Assembly (NCBI GenBank): GCA_963704885.1
Contig: CAVPIB010000001.1
Location: 448,001-512,000 of the forward strand
Direction of reading: 5' to 3'
DNA: 64,000 bases
Source of the DNA: an uncultured Actinomycetes bacterium
GTDB taxonomy: Bacteria > Actinomycetota > UBA4738 > HRBIN12
Each line of letters begins with the position of its first letter. The first letter of the stretch is position 1. The position numbers and the translations under genes were made by a program. This document shows, one piece after another, positions 3,408-49,398 of this stretch. The notes under the pieces were generated by a model. That model saw only the letters and a list, made by a program, of their open reading frames with translations. It ran no database searches and was not told where the DNA came from.

Positions 3408-3754
3408 ATGTCGAGGATCGGCCTGACCTCGACGCTCCCACCGTGGCTCGCGGCCGGGAGCCGGGTGGCGGCCTCGATCGCCTCATCCAGGTTCGCGCAC
3501 TCGACGATGTAGTAGCCGCCCAGTTGCTCCTTGGTCTCCGCGAAGGGCCCGTCGGTGGTGAGCGTCTGCCCGTCGCGCATCCGGACGGTGGTGGCCTTGT
3601 CGGTGTCCGCGAGAGGATCGCCAGCGCGCATCCAATCCTTCTCAACCAGCCAGGCGGAGTACTTCTCGTATTCCTGCATGGTCGCCGACATCTCCGTCGG
3701 GTCCATGTCGGCGAACGCCGCCTCGTCTCCGTAGATGAGCAACATGTAGCGCAT
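3404..3754 (-). CDS. YciI/DGPF-domain protein
   Basis: MRYMLLIYG start after a GAAAGGGG RBS; [16 protein letters not shown] and VEVRPI motifs. Confidence 0.93.
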
Positions 3755-42472: not shown

Positions 42473-42567
42473 TGGCGGAGGCGGACGGGAATCGAACCCG
42501 CCTGGGAGCTTGCGCCCCCACGTCGGTGTTGAAGACCGCGGGGCCCACCAGGAACCCTGACGCCTCC
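42473..42567 (-). tRNA. selC: tRNA-Sec (UCA)
   Basis: Minus strand GGAGGCGTCAGGGTTCCTGGTGGGCCCCGCGGT-CTTCAAC-ACCGACGTGGGGGCGCAAGCTCCCAGGCGGGTTCGATTCCCGTCCGCCTCCGCCA: UCA anticodon, long D-stem, long variable arm, G73, encoded CCA. TAGGCT -10 box upstream. Confidence 0.95.
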
Positions 42568-43815: not shown

Positions 43816-43895
43816 CGACGTTTCTGTGAACATCAAGGGAACCGGCGGTTCAGCCGAGGGTCATGTCGGGACACCACCGTAGGATGGATGCAACC

Positions 43896-44708
43896 ATGGA
43901 AGCCGCGTTCTTCGATCTGGACAAGACGATCATCTCTCGATCGTCCTCGCTCGCGCTCTCTCGTCCCCTGTATCGGGCCGGCATGGTCTCGCGTGGACAG
44001 CTCCTGCGCGGAGCCTACGCGCAGCTGGTCTACCTACTGGTGGGAGCCGACGAGGACAAGATGGAGCGCCTGAAGGAGGGCATGCTCTCCCTCACGAAGG
44101 GGTGGGATCGCTCGCAGGTCGAGCGCCTCGTGCAGGACGTGCTTCTAGACGTGATCGATCCGTACGTCTATCAGGAGGCTCTGGATCTGATCGACCTGCA
44201 CCGAAGCGAGGGTCGCCGGATCTACATCGTCTCGTCGTCTCCGGAGGAGATCGTCCGGCCTCTGGCCCGTCACTTCGGTGTCAGCGGAGTGATCGCCACA
44301 CGCGCCGAGGTCGGCGACGACGGTCGATACACCGGCGGACTGGAGTTCTACGCCTACGGTGCTCAGAAGGCCGAAGCGATCCAGGGGCTCGCCGTCAGGG
44401 CGGGTATCGATCTCTCGGGTTCGTTCGCTTACAGCGACAGCATCACCGACCTCCCCATGCTCGAGGCCGTCGGCAACCCTGTGGCGGTGAACGCCGACAA
44501 GGAGCTCCGCAAGATCGCGGAGGAGCGCGACTGGCAGATCCGCGACTTCCGTCGCCCCGTTCGGCTCCGCTCCCGTATCGCCTCGACCGCGTCGCAGCCC
44601 AAGACTCAGGTCGCGGCCGGCGTGCTGGCCGCCGGCGCGGTGGCCGCGGTCCTGGTGTGGGTGGCGCTCCGGTCGCGCGGCGGAACACGAGGCCGCGGAC
44701 GAGCCTGA
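43896..44708 (+). CDS. HAD-IB family hydrolase (Rv3661-like)
   Basis: AAFFDLDKTII, AYSDSITDLPMLEAVGNP, C-terminal TM helix. Confidence 0.93.
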   Translation: MEAAFFDLDKTIISRSSSLALSRPLYRAGMVSRGQLLRGAYAQLVYLLVGADEDKMERLKEGMLSLTKGWDRSQVERLVQDVLLDVIDPYVYQEALDLIDLHRSEGRRIYIVSSSPEEIVRPLARHFGVSGVIATRAEVGDDGRYTGGLEFYAYGAQKAEAIQGLAVRAGIDLSGSFAYSDSITDLPMLEAVGNPVAVNADKELRKIAEERDWQIRDFRRPVRLRSRIASTASQPKTQVAAGVLAAGAVAAVLVWVALRSRGGTRGRGRA

Positions 44709-44730
44709 GCCCGCACCAGGCTTGCCCGCG

Positions 44731-44759
44731 TTGCGTCGATCCCGGGTCGGGTGTACGGT
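44731..44759 (+). promoter_or_regulatory. sigma70-type promoter with no downstream + strand CDS
   Basis: TTGCGT (44731-44736), 17-nt spacer, TACGGT (44754-44759). Confidence 0.65.
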
Positions 44760-44764
44760 CGAGT

Positions 44765-44902
44765 TGTCTCTTCGGAGGCATCGGGGGGAGCAGAACCCAC
44801 GCGCGAGTCAAGCCGCGGGAGGCATGCTCAGGACCCGGGGGCGCGTAGCCGCCCGGCTCCCGAGCAAGTGCAGACGATGCGCTTGATACCTGCTCCCCTC
44901 GA
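44765..44902 (+). ncRNA. Ms1/6S-like RNA polymerase-binding RNA candidate (compact)
   Basis: Own promoter; 5' UUCG hairpin; 13-bp closing stem 44781-44793/44890-44902; asymmetric bubble; long apical rod; sits downstream of a HAD-IB gene as Ms1 does. Confidence 0.75.
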
Positions 44903-44919
44903 CTATGGCCTGGCGCGGA

Positions 44920-46146
44920 TCACGCTTGGGCGGCGACGGGGCGTAGGTACTCGAAGTGCATCCCGTCGGGCACGATCCAGTCGCCACCCCATGCGAACCC
45001 CCACCGATCCATGACCGCGACGAGTCGTGGATCCTGGGCCGGCGGCGTCCCGAACCGATTCGTGTCGGCGTTCACGTCGAAGGCGATCCCCCAGGCGTGA
45101 TGCGAGATCGACGCCGACGGAGATAGCAGAACGAATCGGGACGAGAAGCAGCCGTCGTAGACGTGGATCGCGGACGCCAAGCCCTCGGCGACGACCTCTT
45201 CCATGGCGCCTCGCAGCTGCGGGATGAGCTTGCGGTTGCAGGACACTCGCCCGATCGCGGGTAGCACCGCAGTCACGATGTGCGCCTGCACCCAGGCCGG
45301 GTCTATCTCGATGTATCCGGCGTCTCCCGGCTGTGGACGCCCCGCCCACTCGCTGAACCGACGCTTGATGAGCGCGGGCGGGAGCACGGCGTCGCCTTGT
45401 CGTAGGTACTTCGTCTGGCCCGGGGCGCGAACCTGTACCACCGGGTACTGCAGATCGGACGGGAGCAGCGCCCGGAACCGGTTCTCGAGTTGGGTGTCGG
45501 ACGGCTGTAGGCCTGTCTCTGGCTGGAAGAGCACGTACCGGTTCTGGTGAACACCGATCGCGGCGCCGGTGGCCCGTGTCACCACGACCTCCGCCGCCCC
45601 CACCAGCTCATCGGGGAGGATGCCGATGACCGTGACGCTCGCCCCTCCCAAGAACGTCATAACGCCACCTGGTCCCAGGTGCCTGAGCTTGGATGACGTC
45701 AGTCCCAAGATCGCCTGGCCGTCCTGGAGGTTGGCAACGATAGGCCTGGTCTCGGGAGGAAGGAATCGCGCGTAGGCGGCCTGATCGATAGCCGCCGCGT
45801 CGATGGGGATCATGTAGGGGGCGGGGGGTTCGTCGACCAGGTTGCCGCCCTTGTCGAGCGAGCTGGTCATCCAGACGTTGTCCTGGGCGACCACGGCCAC
45901 CCCGGCGACGGTTGGGAGGGCGGCGACCTTCACCCCGAAGCCCACCGGGAGACCGCCGGGTACCCAGGCGAGGTACGCATCGACTCGCGGCCCCTCGGGG
46001 GGAGGCGCCGAAGGAGTTCCGGTGGATGGGGTGGGCGTGCTTGCTTCACCGTCAGCCTCCGCTCGCTGGATGAGCGTCACCAGCACCGAACCCGCAGCTG
46101 CGACGGCCACGAACGCTGAGATCCCGGCGATGAGCGCTCGCCGCAC
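44920..46146 (-). CDS. Exported M15 family metallopeptidase (D,D-carboxypeptidase-like) with long N-terminal domain
   Basis: N-terminal TM/signal; SHHAWGIAFDVN, WGFAWGGDW, DGMHFE. Confidence 0.87.
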   Translation of the reverse strand: MRRALIAGISAFVAVAAAGSVLVTLIQRAEADGEASTPTPSTGTPSAPPPEGPRVDAYLAWVPGGLPVGFGVKVAALPTVAGVAVVAQDNVWMTSSLDKGGNLVDEPPAPYMIPIDAAAIDQAAYARFLPPETRPIVANLQDGQAILGLTSSKLRHLGPGGVMTFLGGASVTVIGILPDELVGAAEVVVTRATGAAIGVHQNRYVLFQPETGLQPSDTQLENRFRALLPSDLQYPVVQVRAPGQTKYLRQGDAVLPPALIKRRFSEWAGRPQPGDAGYIEIDPAWVQAHIVTAVLPAIGRVSCNRKLIPQLRGAMEEVVAEGLASAIHVYDGCFSSRFVLLSPSASISHHAWGIAFDVNADTNRFGTPPAQDPRLVAVMDRWGFAWGGDWIVPDGMHFEYLRPVAAQA

Positions 46147-46524: not shown

Positions 46525-49281
46525 CTACGGCGTCGTTGGTGCGTTCGGATCCACGGTCCACGAGCGCAACACGACGATCGAAGCGTTCCCGGCTCGATCC
46601 TGGGCGATCACCCTGAACGAGTGAGGTCCGTCCGCAAGGTCGACGTAGAGCGCCGGAGATGCGCACGGTGTGAACTCGGCTCCGTCGAGCGAACAGGAGA
46701 GCGAGCCGGGCTCGCTCTGCCAGATCTCGAATGACGCCGTGCGGTCGACGGTGACCGCTCCTTCCTCGGGTGTCCCGGTGAGGATCAGCCCGGGTGGGAT
46801 CGTGTCCACGGTCCAGTGATAGGTGACCGCGTGCGACCGATTCATGGCGGCATCGAGCGCCCAGACCTTGAGCGAGTGCCGGCCGTCGAGGAGAGGTCCG
46901 AATATGTTGTCGTCGTCGCAGGGCATGAGCACCATGCCGTCGAGGGTGCAGAGGAAGAGCGCGGGATCGGTGCGGGACCACAACCGGAAGGTCGCGATGG
47001 TGGAGGGCGTGAATCGTTCCGGGTGGCGGGCCAACCGCACCTTCGGCGCTCCCACGTCGACCGTCCACGTGAAGTACGTCTCACCCCGGTTCCCGAGCCC
47101 GTCTTGGGCGGCAACACGAAGTACGTGCGGACCCTTGGCCAGGCCCGACGCCGATATCCGCCCGGCCGAGCAGTCGGATGCCCGGCCACCATCCAGGCGG
47201 CAGGAGATCGCTCCGGCCACCCCTTCCGTGGGCACGAAGCGCAGGTCCGCATCGCTCGACGAGGTGAAGCTGCGGGGGCCCCGCGCCAAGGCGAATCCCG
47301 GACCCGTCGTGTCGACCCGGAAGAGCCACCCGGCGGGGGGTTGGCTCTTCGCCTGCGTGGCCGGATCGACGGCGCGGACCTCGAAGTACCAGGCTCCCTC
47401 GGCCAGTTCGGCATAGTTAACACCGGTCGTCCGATCGCAGCCCGACCAGTCGCCCGCCGGCCCACCGACCGCGGAAAGTCGGCACTCGAACGTCGCCCCT
47501 GCGGCCCCGCTCGCGAAGGTGAATGAGGCGTTCTCGCCCGTCTGGGCGACGGGCGGATGGGAGACGATCGAGACCGCGGGTCCGCTGGAGGTCACCGTGA
47601 AACTCCTGGCCGCCGGCGTCGGATCGACCAGGCCGCCGAGATCGGTGCCTACGACCTCGAAGGTGTAGTCGCCGTCGGCCAGACCTCCGATCGCGTCTGA
47701 CTGGCCGTTGCAATGATGCCAAGGGTCGGCTACGCCATCGTGGACGAGCCGACATCGATACGTGGAGAACCGAGAGGGCGAGAAGAAGGTGAAAGCGGCC
47801 AGTCGAGTGGGCTGCGCACCGGAGGGCCAGGGCCCGGTCACGATCGTCGTGTCGATCGTAGGAGCCGACAGGTGGGCGAGCTTGGCTCTCAGCGAGGCCG
47901 CGATCGACGCGGAGCCCGGAGTTCCGATGAGGTTCAGGAGTTCGTTCGGGTCGGCCTTCAGATCGAACAGCTCACGCTCCCCGCTGTCGTACCGCACGAG
48001 CTTGTAGCGAGGGGTGACCACGCCCGCGAAGGCCGCCGCCCTGGTCTGGTGCGCGAAGAACGAGATCCCGGAGCAGGGGACCGAGCCGGAGCTGGCGCCC
48101 TGACAATGCTCGATCAGGAGCGCGGATCGCACGCTCGCCGCCGAACCGTTAAGCAACGGGACCAGCGAGCGGCCGTCCGCAGACCAGGGGATCCCGGCCA
48201 GCGCCGCGAACGTGGGTGTGAGGTCGATGTTCGAGACGAGCGCACGCGATGTGCGCGCCTGCTCCGCCTGTAGCATCGCCGGGTAGCGGACGACCATCGG
48301 CACCCGCACGGACTCCTCGTAGGCATCGGTCTTGCCGAACCGGCGGTGCTCGCCGAACAGGAACCCGTTGTCGGATAGGTAGACCACCAGCGTGTCGCGC
48401 GACCGATCGCCCAAGCCCGCCAGGATGTGTGCGACCCCGTCGTCGAGCGCTCGCACCGAGTGCGCCATCCTGGTGAAGCGAAGGTCCGAGCTGGCAACCG
48501 CCTCGGGCGTCAAGGGGACTCGACGTGCGTACACAGGGCTCTTCGACGTGAGCGTGTTCTGATCGAACGACGGACCCCTTGGTGGTGTGACCGGCATGCC
48601 GTTGTAGCGCGGGTCGTCCGCGGGCATGTGCGGGGTGGTGGGGGCGTATATAGCGAAGAACGGCTGTTCGGCGGGGGTGGTCTGCACGAAATCGACGACC
48701 CGTTCGGCCAGGATGTCCGATTGGTAGCCCTGGGATCGGTGCCAGGTCCCGTTCTCGTTGATCCACGGATCGACCATGGAGTAGTTCGCGGGCGCTGGCG
48801 CGCCCACGCAATGCCATCCGTCGAACTCGGGACGAGGACCGCACGACTCCCAACTGTTCAGGTACTTGCCCGCCAGCAAGGTTCGGTAACCGGAGTCATG
48901 CAGGGCCTGCACGATCGTCGGGCGTTCCAGTGGAACCGCGTTCGTGTCGACACCGGTGTGATGCTCGTACAGCCCGGTCAGCATCTGCGAACGCGACGGA
49001 CAACAAAGGGGAGTGTTCACGTACGCGCGCTTGAACAGCATCCCCTGGTCGACCAGATCACCGAAGACGGTTGGCATCAGCTCTCGCGAGAAGTCCGACC
49101 ACGCCTGGTCATCGCTCACCAGGAGCAGGATGTTCGGGCGCTCCTGCGGTGGGGATGATGCCCGGACCTCGGTGGGGCGTGTGCCTATCGACAGCGTGGC
49201 GGCGAGCGCCAACACGGTGCAGGCAACGATGGTCACGCGTCCTACGCCGCTCGCTCCGTGCACCCGTCTCCCCCGTCGCAC
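46525..49281 (-). CDS. Exported sulfatase with C-terminal Ig-like repeats (start uncertain)
   Basis: PNILLLVSDDQ, CCPSR (CxPxR), AGKYLN, SDNG; four C..DG...C / F.V.A.D..G repeats. Confidence 0.88.
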   Translation of the reverse strand: MRRGRRVHGASGVGRVTIVACTVLALAATLSIGTRPTEVRASSPPQERPNILLLVSDDQAWSDFSRELMPTVFGDLVDQGMLFKRAYVNTPLCCPSRSQMLTGLYEHHTGVDTNAVPLERPTIVQALHDSGYRTLLAGKYLNSWESCGPRPEFDGWHCVGAPAPANYSMVDPWINENGTWHRSQGYQSDILAERVVDFVQTTPAEQPFFAIYAPTTPHMPADDPRYNGMPVTPPRGPSFDQNTLTSKSPVYARRVPLTPEAVASSDLRFTRMAHSVRALDDGVAHILAGLGDRSRDTLVVYLSDNGFLFGEHRRFGKTDAYEESVRVPMVVRYPAMLQAEQARTSRALVSNIDLTPTFAALAGIPWSADGRSLVPLLNGSAASVRSALLIEHCQGASSGSVPCSGISFFAHQTRAAAFAGVVTPRYKLVRYDSGERELFDLKADPNELLNLIGTPGSASIAASLRAKLAHLSAPTIDTTIVTGPWPSGAQPTRLAAFTFFSPSRFSTYRCRLVHDGVADPWHHCNGQSDAIGGLADGDYTFEVVGTDLGGLVDPTPAARSFTVTSSGPAVSIVSHPPVAQTGENASFTFASGAAGATFECRLSAVGGPAGDWSGCDRTTGVNYAELAEGAWYFEVRAVDPATQAKSQPPAGWLFRVDTTGPGFALARGPRSFTSSSDADLRFVPTEGVAGAISCRLDGGRASDCSAGRISASGLAKGPHVLRVAAQDGLGNRGETYFTWTVDVGAPKVRLARHPERFTPSTIATFRLWSRTDPALFLCTLDGMVLMPCDDDNIFGPLLDGRHSLKVWALDAAMNRSHAVTYHWTVDTIPPGLILTGTPEEGAVTVDRTASFEIWQSEPGSLSCSLDGAEFTPCASPALYVDLADGPHSFRVIAQDRAGNASIVVLRSWTVDPNAPTTP

Positions 49282-49398
49282 CTGCCGCGAGTCTCGGATG
49301 CCGTTCGGGCGTCCGTCAACCGCGACGGGGCGAAAAGACTCCCGACGACCAGAACGGAACGGCTGCGGGAGGCCTTCGCACCTGGCAGGTCGCAAGAC

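What the first reader, a model, noticed from the sequence alone, without database searches (positions are those of the whole stretch)
44731..44902. Unannotated compact Ms1/6S-like RNA at the Ms1 syntenic position
Seen: a promoter (TTGCGT-17-TACGGT) with no + strand gene behind it, then a ~137-nt sequence that folds completely. Elements: TGTCTC-TTCG-GAGGCA hairpin; 13-bp stem TCGGGGGGAGCAG/CTGCTCCCCTCGA; 14-nt unpaired AACCCACGCGCGAG opposite TAC; TCAAGC/GCTTGA; GCA-TGCTC/GAGCA-TGC; CCGGG/CCCGG apex. Known: mycobacterial Ms1/MTS2823 lies just downstream of the Rv3661 HAD-IB hydrolase, near ssd, and binds RNA polymerase core. From memory, CCCACGCG and CGCTTG(G/A)TA resemble conserved Ms1 motifs. 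Inference: a minimal homologue about half the length of mycobacterial Ms1, with a 6S-like rod and bubble. It could define the Ms1 core or link Ms1 to 6S in a deep lineage.
Basis: partly seen in the sequence, partly recalled or inferred. Interest (0 to 1): 0.85.

Follow-up and report, generated by a model that had tools for sequence, protein, structure and literature searches.

The report
Compact Ms1-type RNA polymerase-binding sRNA
A small, strongly folded RNA gene sits just after a membrane-anchored HAD hydrolase gene and is a shortened relative of Ms1, the RNA that binds RNA polymerase in mycobacteria and Streptomyces, here found in a different, uncultured branch of the same phylum.

Summary
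Window 44766-44902 (+) folds far better than shuffles (z -4.8) and lies between a C-terminally anchored HAD-IB gene and a convergent M15 peptidase gene.

- **Conservation:** one copy per genome in 120 of 151 genomes of its class.
- **Promoter:** conserved, with TANNNT at the -10 position in 26 of 28 aligned relatives.
- **Structure:** 22 of 31 base pairs show compensatory changes.
- **Rfam:** the 6S and Ms1 models do not detect it.

It is nevertheless an Ms1 homologue. It shares Ms1's junction: closing stem, ACCCACGCG...CGCUUG(A/G)UA helix, GCC-loop-GGC hairpin and apical hairpin. A model trained only on 12 sequences from the Streptomyces/Mycobacterium class (R3) ranks the element first (E 1.6e-13). 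The same model hits 4 of 4 mycobacterial-type Ms1 loci (three Rfam-verified), 2 of 3 Streptomyces loci and 0 of 25 control loci. It finds one site in the whole genome.

RNA polymerase binding and transcript ends remain untested.

Verdict: a new, short member of a known family. Its main value is defining a phylum-wide Ms1 core.

The parts
43863..44708 (+). HAD-IB hydrolase gene with a C-terminal membrane anchor; the conserved upstream neighbour of Ms1
   Evidence: Pfam PF12710, E 4.7e-35. Hydrophobic C-terminal tail in this protein and in 11 of 11 orthologues inspected. Upstream of the RNA in 20 of 20 first loci.
44731..44736 (+). Predicted -35 hexamer, TTGCGT
   Evidence: Sequence. TTGCG is conserved at this aligned position within the genus and family.
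44754..44759 (+). Predicted -10 hexamer, TACGGT (TANNNT type); predicted start near 44766
   Evidence: 26 of 28 aligned relatives carry TANNNT at this position and 2 carry GAGAAT (my reading). Not flagged by the sigma-70 consensus scanner. The start site is inferred, not mapped.
44766..44779 (+). Small 5' hairpin, GTCTC-TTCG-GAGGC (optional module)
   Evidence: Present in the MFE fold. Its sequence varies with compensatory changes among relatives, and it is absent in L022, L024 and L026. An analogous small 5' hairpin occurs in Streptosporangiales-type Ms1.
44781..44793 (+). P1 closing stem, 5' arm
   Evidence: Pairs with 44890-44902. 11 of 12 modelled pairs show double changes and 97.8% of cells are paired across 53 distinct sequences.
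44794..44805 (+). 5' junction motif AACCCACGCGCG (ACCCACGCG is shared with all Ms1 types examined)
   Evidence: Invariant in A1 and A4. Present in 7 of 7 Streptomyces-type and mycobacterial-type loci. Corresponds to the CCa / GCG helix strands of RF02566.
44812..44823 (+). P3 small hairpin, GCC-GCGGGA-GGC
   Evidence: Invariant in 53 of 53 distinct sequences. Equivalent to the ugCC-GCgaaAuA-GGca hairpin of RF02566. The identical GCCGCGGGAGGC occurs in named Streptosporangiales and Lentzea records.
44825..44866 (+). P4 apical hairpin (TGCTC...GAGCA with a variable G+C-rich apex)
   Evidence: All 10 modelled pairs show double changes (helices 5 and 6). Its length varies between lineages and is about 100 nt longer in mycobacterial Ms1.
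44879..44889 (+). 3' junction motif GCGCTTGATAC (CGCUUG(A/G)UA shared with Ms1)
   Evidence: GCGC pairs with 44801-44804 and TG with 44798-44799 in the consensus. CGCUuGGUa lies at the same place in RF02566.
44890..44902 (+). P1 closing stem, 3' arm; the RNA probably ends a few bases beyond (about 44903-44908)
   Evidence: Covariation. One RNA-library contig ends at 44904, followed by 4 other letters and Illumina adapter sequence (table 7). This is a weak hint only. No U-tract terminator was found.
44920..46146 (-). Convergent M15_4 peptidase gene (downstream neighbour; its stop codon lies 17 nt from the RNA's stem)
   Evidence: Pfam PF13539, E 1.5e-13. Conserved neighbour within the family in 20 of 20 loci, but missing from most loci of other families.

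Best explanation
Window 44766 to about 44905 (+) encodes a stand-alone small RNA of roughly 137-140 nt that is an orthologue of Ms1, the actinobacterial RNA that binds RNA polymerase core.

It is transcribed from its own TANNNT-type promoter directly after the anchored HAD-IB gene. It folds into a short 5' hairpin followed by a rod whose 5' and 3' ends pair in a 13-bp stem.

At the centre is an invariant three-way junction:
- the ACCCACGCG / GCGCUUGAUA helix,
- the GCC-GCGGGA-GGC hairpin,
- a variable apical hairpin.

By homology (inferred, not shown), this junction is the surface that binds RNA polymerase core lacking the primary sigma factor. On this reading the RNA holds a reserve of polymerase during slow growth or dormancy, as Ms1 does in M. 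smegmatis and scr3559 does in S. coelicolor.

Compared with known Ms1 RNAs it has lost the long 5' domain, most of the apical domain and the separate 3' terminator hairpin. What remains is essentially the family's conserved core.

Shown here: conservation, structure, strand, synteny and homology to Ms1. Inferred: the transcript ends, its abundance, and polymerase binding.
For: **A real, conserved structured RNA on the + strand**
- Fold z-score is -4.79.
- BLASTN finds it in 30 of 41 relatives.
- Model R1 finds one locus per genome in 120 of 151 genomes of the class, scoring 92-131 bits on + and 36-40 bits on -.
- 96% of cells are paired and 22 of 31 pairs show double changes. 0 of 500 shuffles reach this, and the covariation score is 0.235 against 0.035-0.083 for slid controls.
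- G-U pairs and 1-2-nt indels within the genus rule out a coding reading and fix the strand.

**Own promoter**
- TTGCG is conserved at -35. TANNNT sits at the aligned -10 position in 26 of 28 relatives.

**Synteny**
- The upstream HAD-IB protein has a C-terminal anchor, as MSMEG_6173 is described (PMC9130861 section 23).
- 58 of 80 loci chosen only by the HAD protein carry the RNA.
- Rfam-verified Ms1 sits in the same place after the HAD orthologue in mycobacterial-type genomes.

**Shared core**
- ACCCACGCG ... CGCNTGGTA occurs in 7 of 7 Streptomyces-type and mycobacterial-type loci chosen by HAD alone. Among the other 25 HAD-downstream loci, ACCCACGCG occurs in 1 (L179, which carries the compact RNA itself).
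- The composite pattern occurs exactly once in this 3.0-Mb genome, at the element. The reversed-pattern control gave about 56 matches in 401 genomes by my count.
- The RNAalifold consensus has the same topology as the central domain of RF02566.

**Model-based links**
- R1, built from this order only, matches 12 of 12 named Streptosporangiales, Lentzea and Geodermatophilaceae loci full length, at E 6e-7 to 1e-4. These loci were preselected by the 5' motif.
- R2, built without this order, hits the Streptomyces Ms1 core at E 0.0016-0.07.
- R3, built from 12 sequences of the Streptomyces/Mycobacterium class, ranks the window element first (60.8 bits, E 1.6e-13). It hits 4 of 4 mycobacterial-type loci (E 1e-6 to 1e-3), 2 of 3 Streptomyces-type loci and 0 of 25 other HAD-downstream loci. 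It finds exactly one site in the whole genome (E 5.6e-12).

**Supporting observations**
- No 6S RNA was found in the genome.
- Near-identical short contigs (12 contigs, 41-62 nt, 11 of them at 95% identity or more) covering 44782-44897 are present in a groundwater RNA library. Relatives' contigs covering the RNA occur in 3 further RNA libraries from other studies.
- Ms1 and scr3559 binding to polymerase core is published (PMC4191392 passages; PMC11077062 passages).
Against: - Rfam's Ms1 model gives no match at E <= 10 in 451 nt or at E <= 1 genome-wide.
- R1 does not reach mycobacterial or Streptomyces Ms1 (best E 0.04, hairpin only).
- Pairwise alignment to Streptomyces loci is no better than shuffles. 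Against mycobacterial-type loci it is modest: 0, 6, 12 and 59 of 500 shuffles reach the observed score.
- R3's training loci were picked with a motif derived from this family, so its hit on the window is partly circular. Its hits on Ms1 loci chosen by HAD and Rfam are not.
- Model E-values come from a shortened calibration and are rough.
- At about 137 nt the RNA is below the 150-nt floor that the Ms1 discoverers used to exclude candidates (PMC9130861 section 18).
- It lacks the 3' hairpin and any recognisable terminator.
- Other Ms1 context features are missing:
  - the other flank is a peptidase, not an oxidoreductase;
  - no 6C RNA is in the window;
  - it lies 295 kb from dnaA and is transcribed away from it.
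- 22 of 80 HAD loci carry no such RNA. This includes all seven loci labelled Acidimicrobiia or Acidimicrobiales. Some of the 22 are cut by contig ends.
- Expression rests on assembled contigs. These cannot show strand, ends or level.
- Polymerase binding is untested.
Confidence: 0.8

Rival explanations
1. It is homologous to Ms1 but works differently. For example, it might bind the sigma-containing holoenzyme (as 6S does, or both forms as CoRP does), or bind another partner. The short form may have lost or never had core-specific binding.
For: The 5' domain, the long apical domain and the terminator hairpin of validated Ms1 RNAs are all missing. Published deletion data concern only the 'central bubble' of the 304-nt RNA (PMC4191392 passages). 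scr3559 shows a minor association with HrdB, and CoRP binds both polymerase forms (PMC11077062 passages). No 6S RNA was found in this genome, so a 6S-like role is vacant.
Against: The parts retained are exactly those that are invariant across all lineages, which argues for a conserved partner. The 2014 paper calls the internal bubble and adjacent helices the most conserved elements and found them important for core binding. There is no similarity to any 6S model.
Confidence: 0.13
2. It is not an independent RNA gene but a cis element: a 3' UTR structure or bidirectional terminator for the convergent HAD and M15 peptidase genes.
For: It lies between two convergent genes, 58 nt after the HAD stop codon and 17 nt before the peptidase stop codon. 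A 13-bp G+C-rich stem closes it. One RNA-library contig from a relative joins the HAD 3' end to the element (table 5). In some other-class versions the closing stem is followed by a T run (L062).
Against: - Terminators do not keep about 45 invariant internal bases across classes.
- A positioned promoter is conserved upstream.
- The element also occurs away from HAD and M15: in f16, f7, f44, f54 and Streptosporangiales, and inverted about 1.1 kb away in 5 loci.
- The peptidase neighbour is lost outside the family.
- Strand asymmetry of model scores is large, about 130 against about 36 bits.
Confidence: 0.04
3. It encodes a small protein (ORFs 44722-44886, 54 aa, or 44751-45014, 87 aa, on the + strand).
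For: These open frames exist.
Against: One- and two-base indels occur within the genus inside the frames. The substitution pattern is compensatory in helices, not codon-like. In high-G+C DNA such frames arise by chance.
Confidence: 0.01

Closest known systems
Ms1 RNA of mycobacteria (Rfam RF02566; M. smegmatis Ms1, MTS2823)
   Same: - Lies directly downstream of, and co-oriented with, the orthologous anchored HAD-IB gene, with its own promoter.
- Central domain topology and motifs match: long closing stem, ACCCaCGCG / CGCUuGGUa helix, small GCC...GGC hairpin, apical hairpin.
- Both are hit by the same model, R3.
   Different: - About 137 nt against 304 nt.
- No 66-nt 5' domain; only a 14-nt hairpin.
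- Apical domain about 100 nt shorter.
- No 3' terminator hairpin.
- The Rfam model does not detect it.
- Different downstream neighbour, no 6C RNA nearby, and transcribed away from dnaA.
scr3559 / Str13, the Ms1 homologue of Streptomyces coelicolor (about 230 nt; binds RNA polymerase core)
   Same: Located downstream of the HAD orthologue (SCO3558 type). ACCCACGCG ... CGCTTGGTAAC is flanked by a closing stem. Spacing between the two motifs is similar: 78 nt in L153 against 76 nt here.
   Different: Different sequence between the motifs, with CCCG-loop-CGGG in place of GCC-GCGGGA-GGC. It is longer and has a terminator hairpin. It is linked to the window only through models R2 and R3 (E 8e-4 to 0.07), not by pairwise similarity.
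Ms1-type RNAs of Streptosporangiales and relatives (Nonomuraea, Actinomadura, Microbispora and others; genera listed with predicted Ms1 in PMC9130861 Table 4)
   Same: The 5' junction and hairpin are identical (ACCCACGCGCG...GCCGCGGGAGGC). They share the small 5' hairpin, and the core is of similar size at 92-105 nt. R1 scores 32-44 bits.
   Different: They have a two-part closing stem and a separate 3' terminator hairpin, for a total of about 170-175 nt by my estimate. HAD is mostly not within the 8-kb loci. I could not see the paper's supplements, so I cannot confirm that its predicted Ms1 coordinates coincide with these sites.
6S RNA (RF00013)
   Same: An abundant rod-shaped RNA that targets RNA polymerase. 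Ms1 was first found in 6S searches (PMC4191392).
   Different: No sequence or structure match. There is no large open central bubble. 6S binds the sigma-70-type holoenzyme, whereas Ms1 binds core.
CoRP RNA of Corynebacterium (about 500 nt; binds core and holoenzyme)
   Same: An actinobacterial RNA associated with RNA polymerase, found in a lineage without recognisable Ms1 or 6S (PMC11077062 passages).
   Different: Different locus (between tRNA genes) and size. No similarity was tested or seen here.

Membership tests
Ms1 RNA | Gene lies downstream of, and co-oriented with, the HAD-IB hydrolase gene whose product has a C-terminal transmembrane segment | tested here: met
   PF12710 at E 4.7e-35 with a hydrophobic C-terminal tail. 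58 of 80 HAD-selected loci carry the RNA. Rfam-verified Ms1 occupies the same position in 3 of 4 mycobacterial-type loci at gathering score, and the fourth (L157) is found by R3.
Ms1 RNA | Conserved central domain (the 'internal bubble and adjacent double-stranded regions'): sequence and fold | tested here: met
   Same helix order and motifs as the RF02566 consensus. R3, trained on sequences from the Streptomyces/Mycobacterium class, gives E 1.6e-13 for the window and E 1e-6 to 1e-3 for the four mycobacterial-type loci. The composite motif is unique in the genome.
Ms1 RNA | Reaches the gathering score of Rfam RF02566 | tested here: not met
   No match at E <= 10 on 44600-45050 or at E <= 1 on the whole genome. 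The discoverers note that Rfam finds Ms1 only near mycobacteria (PMC9130861 section 28). This fails the Rfam model, not necessarily the family.
Ms1 RNA | Own promoter; single-gene transcription unit | tested here: inconclusive
   Conserved -35 and TANNNT -10 at a fixed position. The consensus scanner found none and no start site has been mapped.
Ms1 RNA | Length of about 200-300 nt, with short hairpins at both ends (the 3' one a terminator) | tested here: not met
   About 137-140 nt. A small 5' hairpin is present, but there is no 3' hairpin and no terminator-like site. Candidates under 150 nt were excluded by the discoverers.
Ms1 RNA | Located near the replication origin and transcribed towards it (84% of cases in the 2014 paper) | tested here: not met
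   dnaA is at contig C1:197603-198082 (+). The RNA is at C1:492781-492902 (+), 295 kb away, and points away from dnaA.
Ms1 RNA | [quoted passage not shown] | not testable with these tools
   The only evidence is the sequence's presence in four metatranscriptome assemblies.
6S RNA | Match to 6S covariance models; large central bubble mimicking an open promoter | tested here: not met
   No 6S hit locally or genome-wide. The consensus is a three-way junction with a paired, invariant centre.

The most novel reading that the evidence does not exclude
The junction module of about 95-120 nt may be the ancestral, self-sufficient module of all Ms1 RNAs that binds RNA polymerase core. It consists of the closing stem, the ACCCACGCG/CGCUUGRUA helix, the GCC-GGC hairpin and a short apical hairpin.

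On this reading it predates the split of the Actinomycetota classes, and the long 5', apical and terminator domains of mycobacterial and Streptomyces Ms1 are later additions.

The field's working length floor (150 nt or more; intergenic regions of 100 nt or less called 'too short') and its view of Ms1 RNAs as 'sequentially unrelated' would then have hidden Ms1 in several lineages. A single covariance model could annotate it phylum-wide.
Probability: 0.55. Interest if true: 0.65.

Novelty: new member of a known kind. Interest (0 to 1): 0.52.

Why it matters
Ms1 is one of only three known classes of abundant RNAs that bind bacterial RNA polymerase. No structure of its complex turned up in one targeted search of the library, and the part that contacts the enzyme is poorly defined.

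This locus, with the 50-plus relatives collected here, shows three things:
- Ms1 extends beyond the class that holds Mycobacterium and Streptomyces into at least one other, largely uncultured class of the phylum.
- All Ms1 types share an invariant junction. The published surveys do not describe it in the main texts I read; they call the RNAs weakly conserved or 'sequentially unrelated'.
- A natural version of about 137 nt exists, and forms of about 95-110 nt exist in another lineage.

These give a minimal construct for binding and structural work. They also give a single model for annotating Ms1 across the phylum, and a reason to re-examine lineages declared Ms1-free because their intergenic regions or candidates were 'too short'.

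It does not change what Ms1 is thought to do, and the function here rests on homology only.

Tried and rejected
- **Rfam.** At gathering threshold on the whole window the only hit is tRNA-Sec. At E <= 10 on 451 nt there are three chance-level hits and no 6S or Ms1. RF00013 and RF02566 on the whole genome give none.
- **Promoter and terminator scanner.** 0 and 0 sites. It is too strict for TANNNT promoters, so I do not count this against a promoter.
- **R1 against HAD-downstream loci of other families.** Only L179 is significant. The Ms1 loci give hairpin-only hits at E >= 0.04.
- **R2.** Does not reach mycobacterial-type Ms1 at E < 1.
- **Pairwise local alignment against shuffles.** Not significant for the Streptomyces-type loci.
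- **Loose two-motif pattern.** It has a real background, with about 40 of its matches lying in unrelated, mostly coding-like sequence. It is therefore useful only together with position.
- **Whole-genome searches with strict filters.** These miss Streptomyces and mycobacterial Ms1. One G290 hit at E 0.0054 is not at the Ms1 locus and is probably spurious. L071 and L072 (E 0.02 and 0.25) look like chance hits in coding-like sequence.
- **Alignments A3 and A5.** Contaminated by reverse-strand matches, so they were not used.
- **Sequencing runs.**
  - 24 runs were listed (22 on record as RNA). Each holds only 0.05-0.08 of the sampled words.
  - In run X12 the flanking genes have no cover while the RNA does.
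  - In X5 and X9, relatives' contigs (under 90% identity) run on from the RNA into the 3' end of the peptidase gene, so no common 3' end is shown.
- **Earlier findings of this scan.** Nothing is on record for this genome.
- **Literature.**
  - A search for Ms1 together with Acidimicrobiia, Thermoleophilia, Rubrobacter or Coriobacteriia listed nothing relevant among the 10 shown of 105.
  - A search for the motif strings listed only primers and unrelated sequences among the 10 shown of 274.
  - A search for an Ms1-polymerase cryo-EM structure gave 2 papers, neither of them one.
  - These searches are weak evidence of absence. The supplements of the Ms1 papers, which hold the species lists, alignments and structures, could not be read.
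- **Taxonomy.** Naming the class of the organism failed. The nearest named records are only 'Actinomycetota bacterium' or 'uncultured Actinomycetes bacterium', plus one 'Solirubrobacterales'.
Full report
**1. What is at the locus**

Window 44709-44919 is the gap between two convergent genes.
- Upstream, on the + strand, is a 281-aa HAD-IB-type hydrolase (43863-44708; Pfam PF12710, E 4.7e-35). Its C-terminus is a hydrophobic anchor followed by basic residues.
- Downstream, on the - strand, is a 408-aa protein with an M15_4 peptidase domain (44920-46146).

- TTGCGT at 44731-44736, 17 nt, then TACGGT at 44754-44759.
- A GTCTC-TTCG-GAGGC hairpin at 44766-44779.
- A 13-bp stem in which 44781-44793 pairs with 44890-44902.

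The 137 nt from 44766 to 44902 fold at -78.9 kcal/mol. Shuffles give -59.35 +/- 4.08 (z -4.79, 0 of 200 shuffles as good). The opposite strand folds less well (z -3.81).

**2. It is a conserved RNA, not a chance fold**

- BLASTN with 44731-44919 found a match in 30 of 41 related genomes, reaching into other families of the same order.
- In the first 20 loci the arrangement HAD, element, convergent peptidase was present 20 of 20 times. In more distant families HAD stays but the peptidase neighbour is mostly lost.
- The alignment shows a block of invariant bases flanked by helices whose sequences change in a compensatory way.
- Upstream there is a positionally fixed -10 element of the actinobacterial TANNNT kind. 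By my reading, 26 of 28 sequences have it (TACGGT, TAGCGT, TAGAAT, TAAAAT, TACAAT, TAGGAT, TAAGGT, TAGGGT) and 2 have GAGAAT.
- RNAalifold predicts these elements:
  - a 12-bp closing stem;
  - a short CA/UG plus GCGC/GCGC helix;
  - a small GCC-GCGGGA-GGC hairpin;
  - an apical hairpin.
- Model R1, built from 28 sequences of this order, found one locus per genome in 120 of 151 genomes sampled from the class. It scored 92-131 bits for most on the + strand against 36-40 bits on the reverse strand.
- On 56 forward matches (53 distinct) from this order and two other families, one search gave:
  - 96.0% of cells paired;
  - 22 of 31 pairs with changes on both sides;
  - 0 of 500 shuffles reaching any of the five measures;
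  - a covariation score of 0.235, against 0.035-0.083 when partners are slid.
- The closing stem and the apical hairpin carry the covariation. The junction helices and the small hairpin never vary, so their pairing is neither supported nor contradicted by covariation.
- G-U pairs, the strand asymmetry, and 1-2-nt indels within the genus exclude a coding reading and fix the strand.

Three rows of these alignments (L008, L018, L027) come from genomes flagged unpublished. The conclusions do not depend on them, but I did not recompute without them.

**3. Known RNA families do not claim it**

- Rfam 15 at gathering threshold finds only a tRNA-Sec in the window.
- At E <= 10 on 451 nt there are three chance-level matches and no 6S or Ms1.
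- RF00013 (6S) and RF02566 (Ms1) find nothing in the whole 3.0-Mb genome at E <= 1.

**4. It is nevertheless an Ms1 homologue**

*Background from the literature.* Ms1 has been reported in 824 species of 14 orders. All of these belong to the class that holds Mycobacterium and Streptomyces. It was found mainly through its linkage to the 'HAD IB hydrolase' gene, whose M. smegmatis product has a C-terminal transmembrane segment (PMC9130861, abstract and sections 22, 23).

*Synteny.* I located the HAD orthologue in a 151-genome sample of the phylum; 79 genomes had a match at E <= 1e-30. I fetched 32 downstream regions. Rfam's Ms1 model hit 3 of the first 20 loci scanned (L156, L158, L159; 235-316 bits), directly after HAD and in large genomes of one family.

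*First model test fails.* R1 did not reach these loci (best E 0.04, hairpin only).

*Shared motifs.* A motif scan showed ACCCACGCG in all 7 loci of that family and of a second family with 7.5-9.2-Mb genomes. It is followed 78-142 nt later by CGC(T/A/C)TGGTAAC. The same two motifs lie in the same order in the window (44795-44803 and 44880-44888). Among the other 25 loci, only L179 has the motif, and it carries the compact RNA itself. The second family is Streptomyces: a 45-nt stretch of its element matched only Streptomyces-titled records among the 80 rows shown of 120.

*Shared fold.* Rfam's own alignment of RF02566 to L156 shows what these motifs are. After a long closing stem, CCa pairs with uGG and GCG with CGC. 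Then come a small hairpin (ugCC-loop-GGca) and the long apical stem. That is the same order of elements that RNAalifold derived independently for the window's family.

*Background rate of the pattern.* ACCCACGCG-N(50-170)-CGCNTGRTA occurs exactly once in this genome, at the element. The reversed-pattern control gave about 56 matches in 401 genomes by my count. A chance co-occurrence in this particular 210-nt gap is therefore of the order of 1e-5.

**5. Intermediates and formal links**

- The 5' junction plus hairpin motif, scanned over named genomes, returned two groups:
  - window-type MAGs;
  - many cultured members of the Streptomyces/Mycobacterium class: Nonomuraea, Herbidospora, Microbispora, Actinomadura, Sphaerisporangium, Planomonospora, Microtetraspora, Spirillospora, and also Lentzea. 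All are genera listed with predicted Ms1 in Table 4 of PMC9130861.
- All 120 loci also show the 3' motif and a closing stem.
- R1 matched 12 of 12 such loci full length, at E 6e-7 to 1e-4. These loci were preselected by the 5' motif, so only the rest of each match is independent.
- Their anatomy is: promoter, small 5' hairpin, two-part stem, 92-105-nt core, then a separate terminator hairpin. By my estimate that totals about 170-175 nt.
- R2 was built only from sequences outside the window's order (families f18, f16, f44, f54). Its three best hits in 92 kb fell on the Streptomyces Ms1 core, at E 0.0016, 0.014 and 0.072.
- R3 was built only from 12 sequences of the Streptomyces/Mycobacterium class. 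With filters off over 37 loci (85.6 kb) it gave 12 hits at E <= 0.1:

| Target | Result with R3 |
|---|---|
| Window element (L001 1551-1672 = window 44781-44902) | Ranked first; 60.8 bits, E 1.6e-13 |
| Compact forms of other families (5 loci) | E 1e-8 to 1e-12 |
| Mycobacterial-type loci (4 of 4, three Rfam-verified) | E 1.1e-6, 1.1e-5, 6.8e-5, 1e-3 |
| Streptomyces-type loci (2 of 3) | E 8e-4 and 0.016 |
| Other HAD-downstream loci (25) | No hit |

- Over whole genomes R3 finds exactly one site in this genome (E 5.6e-12).
- Caveats:
  - R3's training loci were picked with a motif taken from the window's family, so its hit on the window is partly circular. Its hits on Ms1 loci chosen by HAD and Rfam are not.
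  - E-values from the short calibration are rough.
  - Pairwise alignment alone is weak.

**6. Distribution**

- Of 80 named loci chosen only by the HAD protein, 58 carry the RNA at E <= 1e-6:
  - 52 lie on the + strand within about 70-180 nt after HAD.
  - 5 lie inverted about 1.1 kb downstream.
  - 1 is cut at the locus end.
- The other 22 gave nothing even with filters off. Several are cut by contig ends. All seven loci labelled Acidimicrobiia or Acidimicrobiales have full flanks and no RNA.
- In a phylum sample, R1 and R3 find compact forms (93-110 nt) in family f18 (7-8 of 10) and some of f16 (1-3 of 10). R3 also finds them in f7 and f44.
- In f16, f7, f44 and f54 the RNA is not next to HAD.
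- In L062 the closing stem is followed by TTTTT, so there the stem may double as terminator.
- The tool labels Streptomyces-type and mycobacterial-type genomes 'same phylum', not 'same class', as this genome. The lineage is therefore outside their class. I could not name it.

**7. Expression**

- 24 listed runs (22 on record as RNA) hold a small share of the 601-nt query. Four were laid, from four studies.
- A groundwater RNA library holds 12 short contigs (41-62 nt; 4 at 99% identity or more, 7 at 95-99%, 1 at 90-95%) covering 44782-44897.
- One further record ends at 44904, followed by four other letters and Illumina adapter. This is a weak hint of a molecule end there.
- Three other RNA libraries hold relatives' contigs over the RNA. 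One joins it to the HAD 3' end. Two run on into the peptidase 3' end.
- Contigs cannot show strand, ends or level, so this shows presence in RNA libraries and no more.

**8. How it most likely works**

- Shown: a conserved, independently promoted, + strand structured RNA that is homologous to Ms1.
- The invariant junction is the obvious candidate for the contact surface. It is the only part kept in all lineages, and the 2014 paper found the central region to be both the most conserved part and needed for binding.
- The terminal stem would protect both ends. How the 3' end forms here is unknown.

**9.

- The TCAAGC/GCTTGA helix is not conserved (75.6% paired).
- The centre is a junction, not a 6S-like bubble, and nothing links it to 6S.
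- Relative to canonical Ms1:
  - the RNA is short, below the 150-nt floor the discoverers applied;
  - it lacks the 3' hairpin;
  - it has a different downstream neighbour and no nearby 6C RNA;
  - it lies 295 kb from dnaA and points away from it.

**10. Verdict**

This is a real feature and a new, short member of the Ms1 family in a lineage where Ms1 has not been reported, as far as the main texts I read and three literature searches show (supplements unseen). Its chief value is that it exposes a phylum-wide Ms1 core and a near-minimal natural construct.

Noticed in passing
window 42477-42567 (-): A selenocysteine tRNA (Rfam RF01852, 70.9 bits, E 1.7e-12), which suggests the organism uses selenoproteins. 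It was the only Rfam gathering-level hit in the 64-kb window.
   Followed up: no
L223 3066-3160 (-), a MAG labelled Geodermatophilaceae: An Ms1-type core (R1 32.7 bits) lies about 500 nt downstream of a HAD orthologue with 51% identity. The 2022 Ms1 survey reported neither Ms1 nor its synteny in Geodermatophilales (PMC9130861 section 23).
   Followed up: partly
L081, L083, L095, L098, L125 (about 3410-3550, - strand): In five HAD-selected loci the RNA lies about 1.1 kb downstream of HAD on the opposite strand, which suggests a local inversion or insertion in one sub-lineage.
   Followed up: no
L216 2564-2702 (-), a contig labelled 'uncultured Alphaproteobacteria bacterium': The contig carries an Ms1 core of the Streptomyces/Mycobacterium-class type with a long apical insertion (R1 39.3 bits), next to a HAD-like gene of 32-34% identity. 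The label looks like a binning or labelling error.
   Followed up: no
L062 1501-1596 and relatives (families f18 and f16): Still shorter forms (93-110 nt) begin a few bases after a TANNNT box. In L062 the form ends in a T run right after the closing stem, so the whole RNA may be only about 105 nt, with the stem acting as terminator.
   Followed up: partly
L189 1493-1587 and L192 1486-1597 (families f54 and f44): These Ms1-type cores have a UCC-loop-GGA hairpin in place of GCC-loop-GGC. No HAD gene lies within 1.5 kb, and both have promoter-like and terminator-like flanks.
   Followed up: partly
window 44651-44720 (+): A weak match to the c-di-GMP-II-GCG riboswitch model (18 bits, E 1.7, far below the gathering score of 47.9) lies inside the 3' end of the HAD gene. 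It is most likely chance.
   Followed up: no
window 46525-49395 (-): A large 956-aa sulfatase with an SGSH_C domain and a C-terminal bacterial Ig-like (Big_13) domain lies just beyond the peptidase gene.
   Followed up: no
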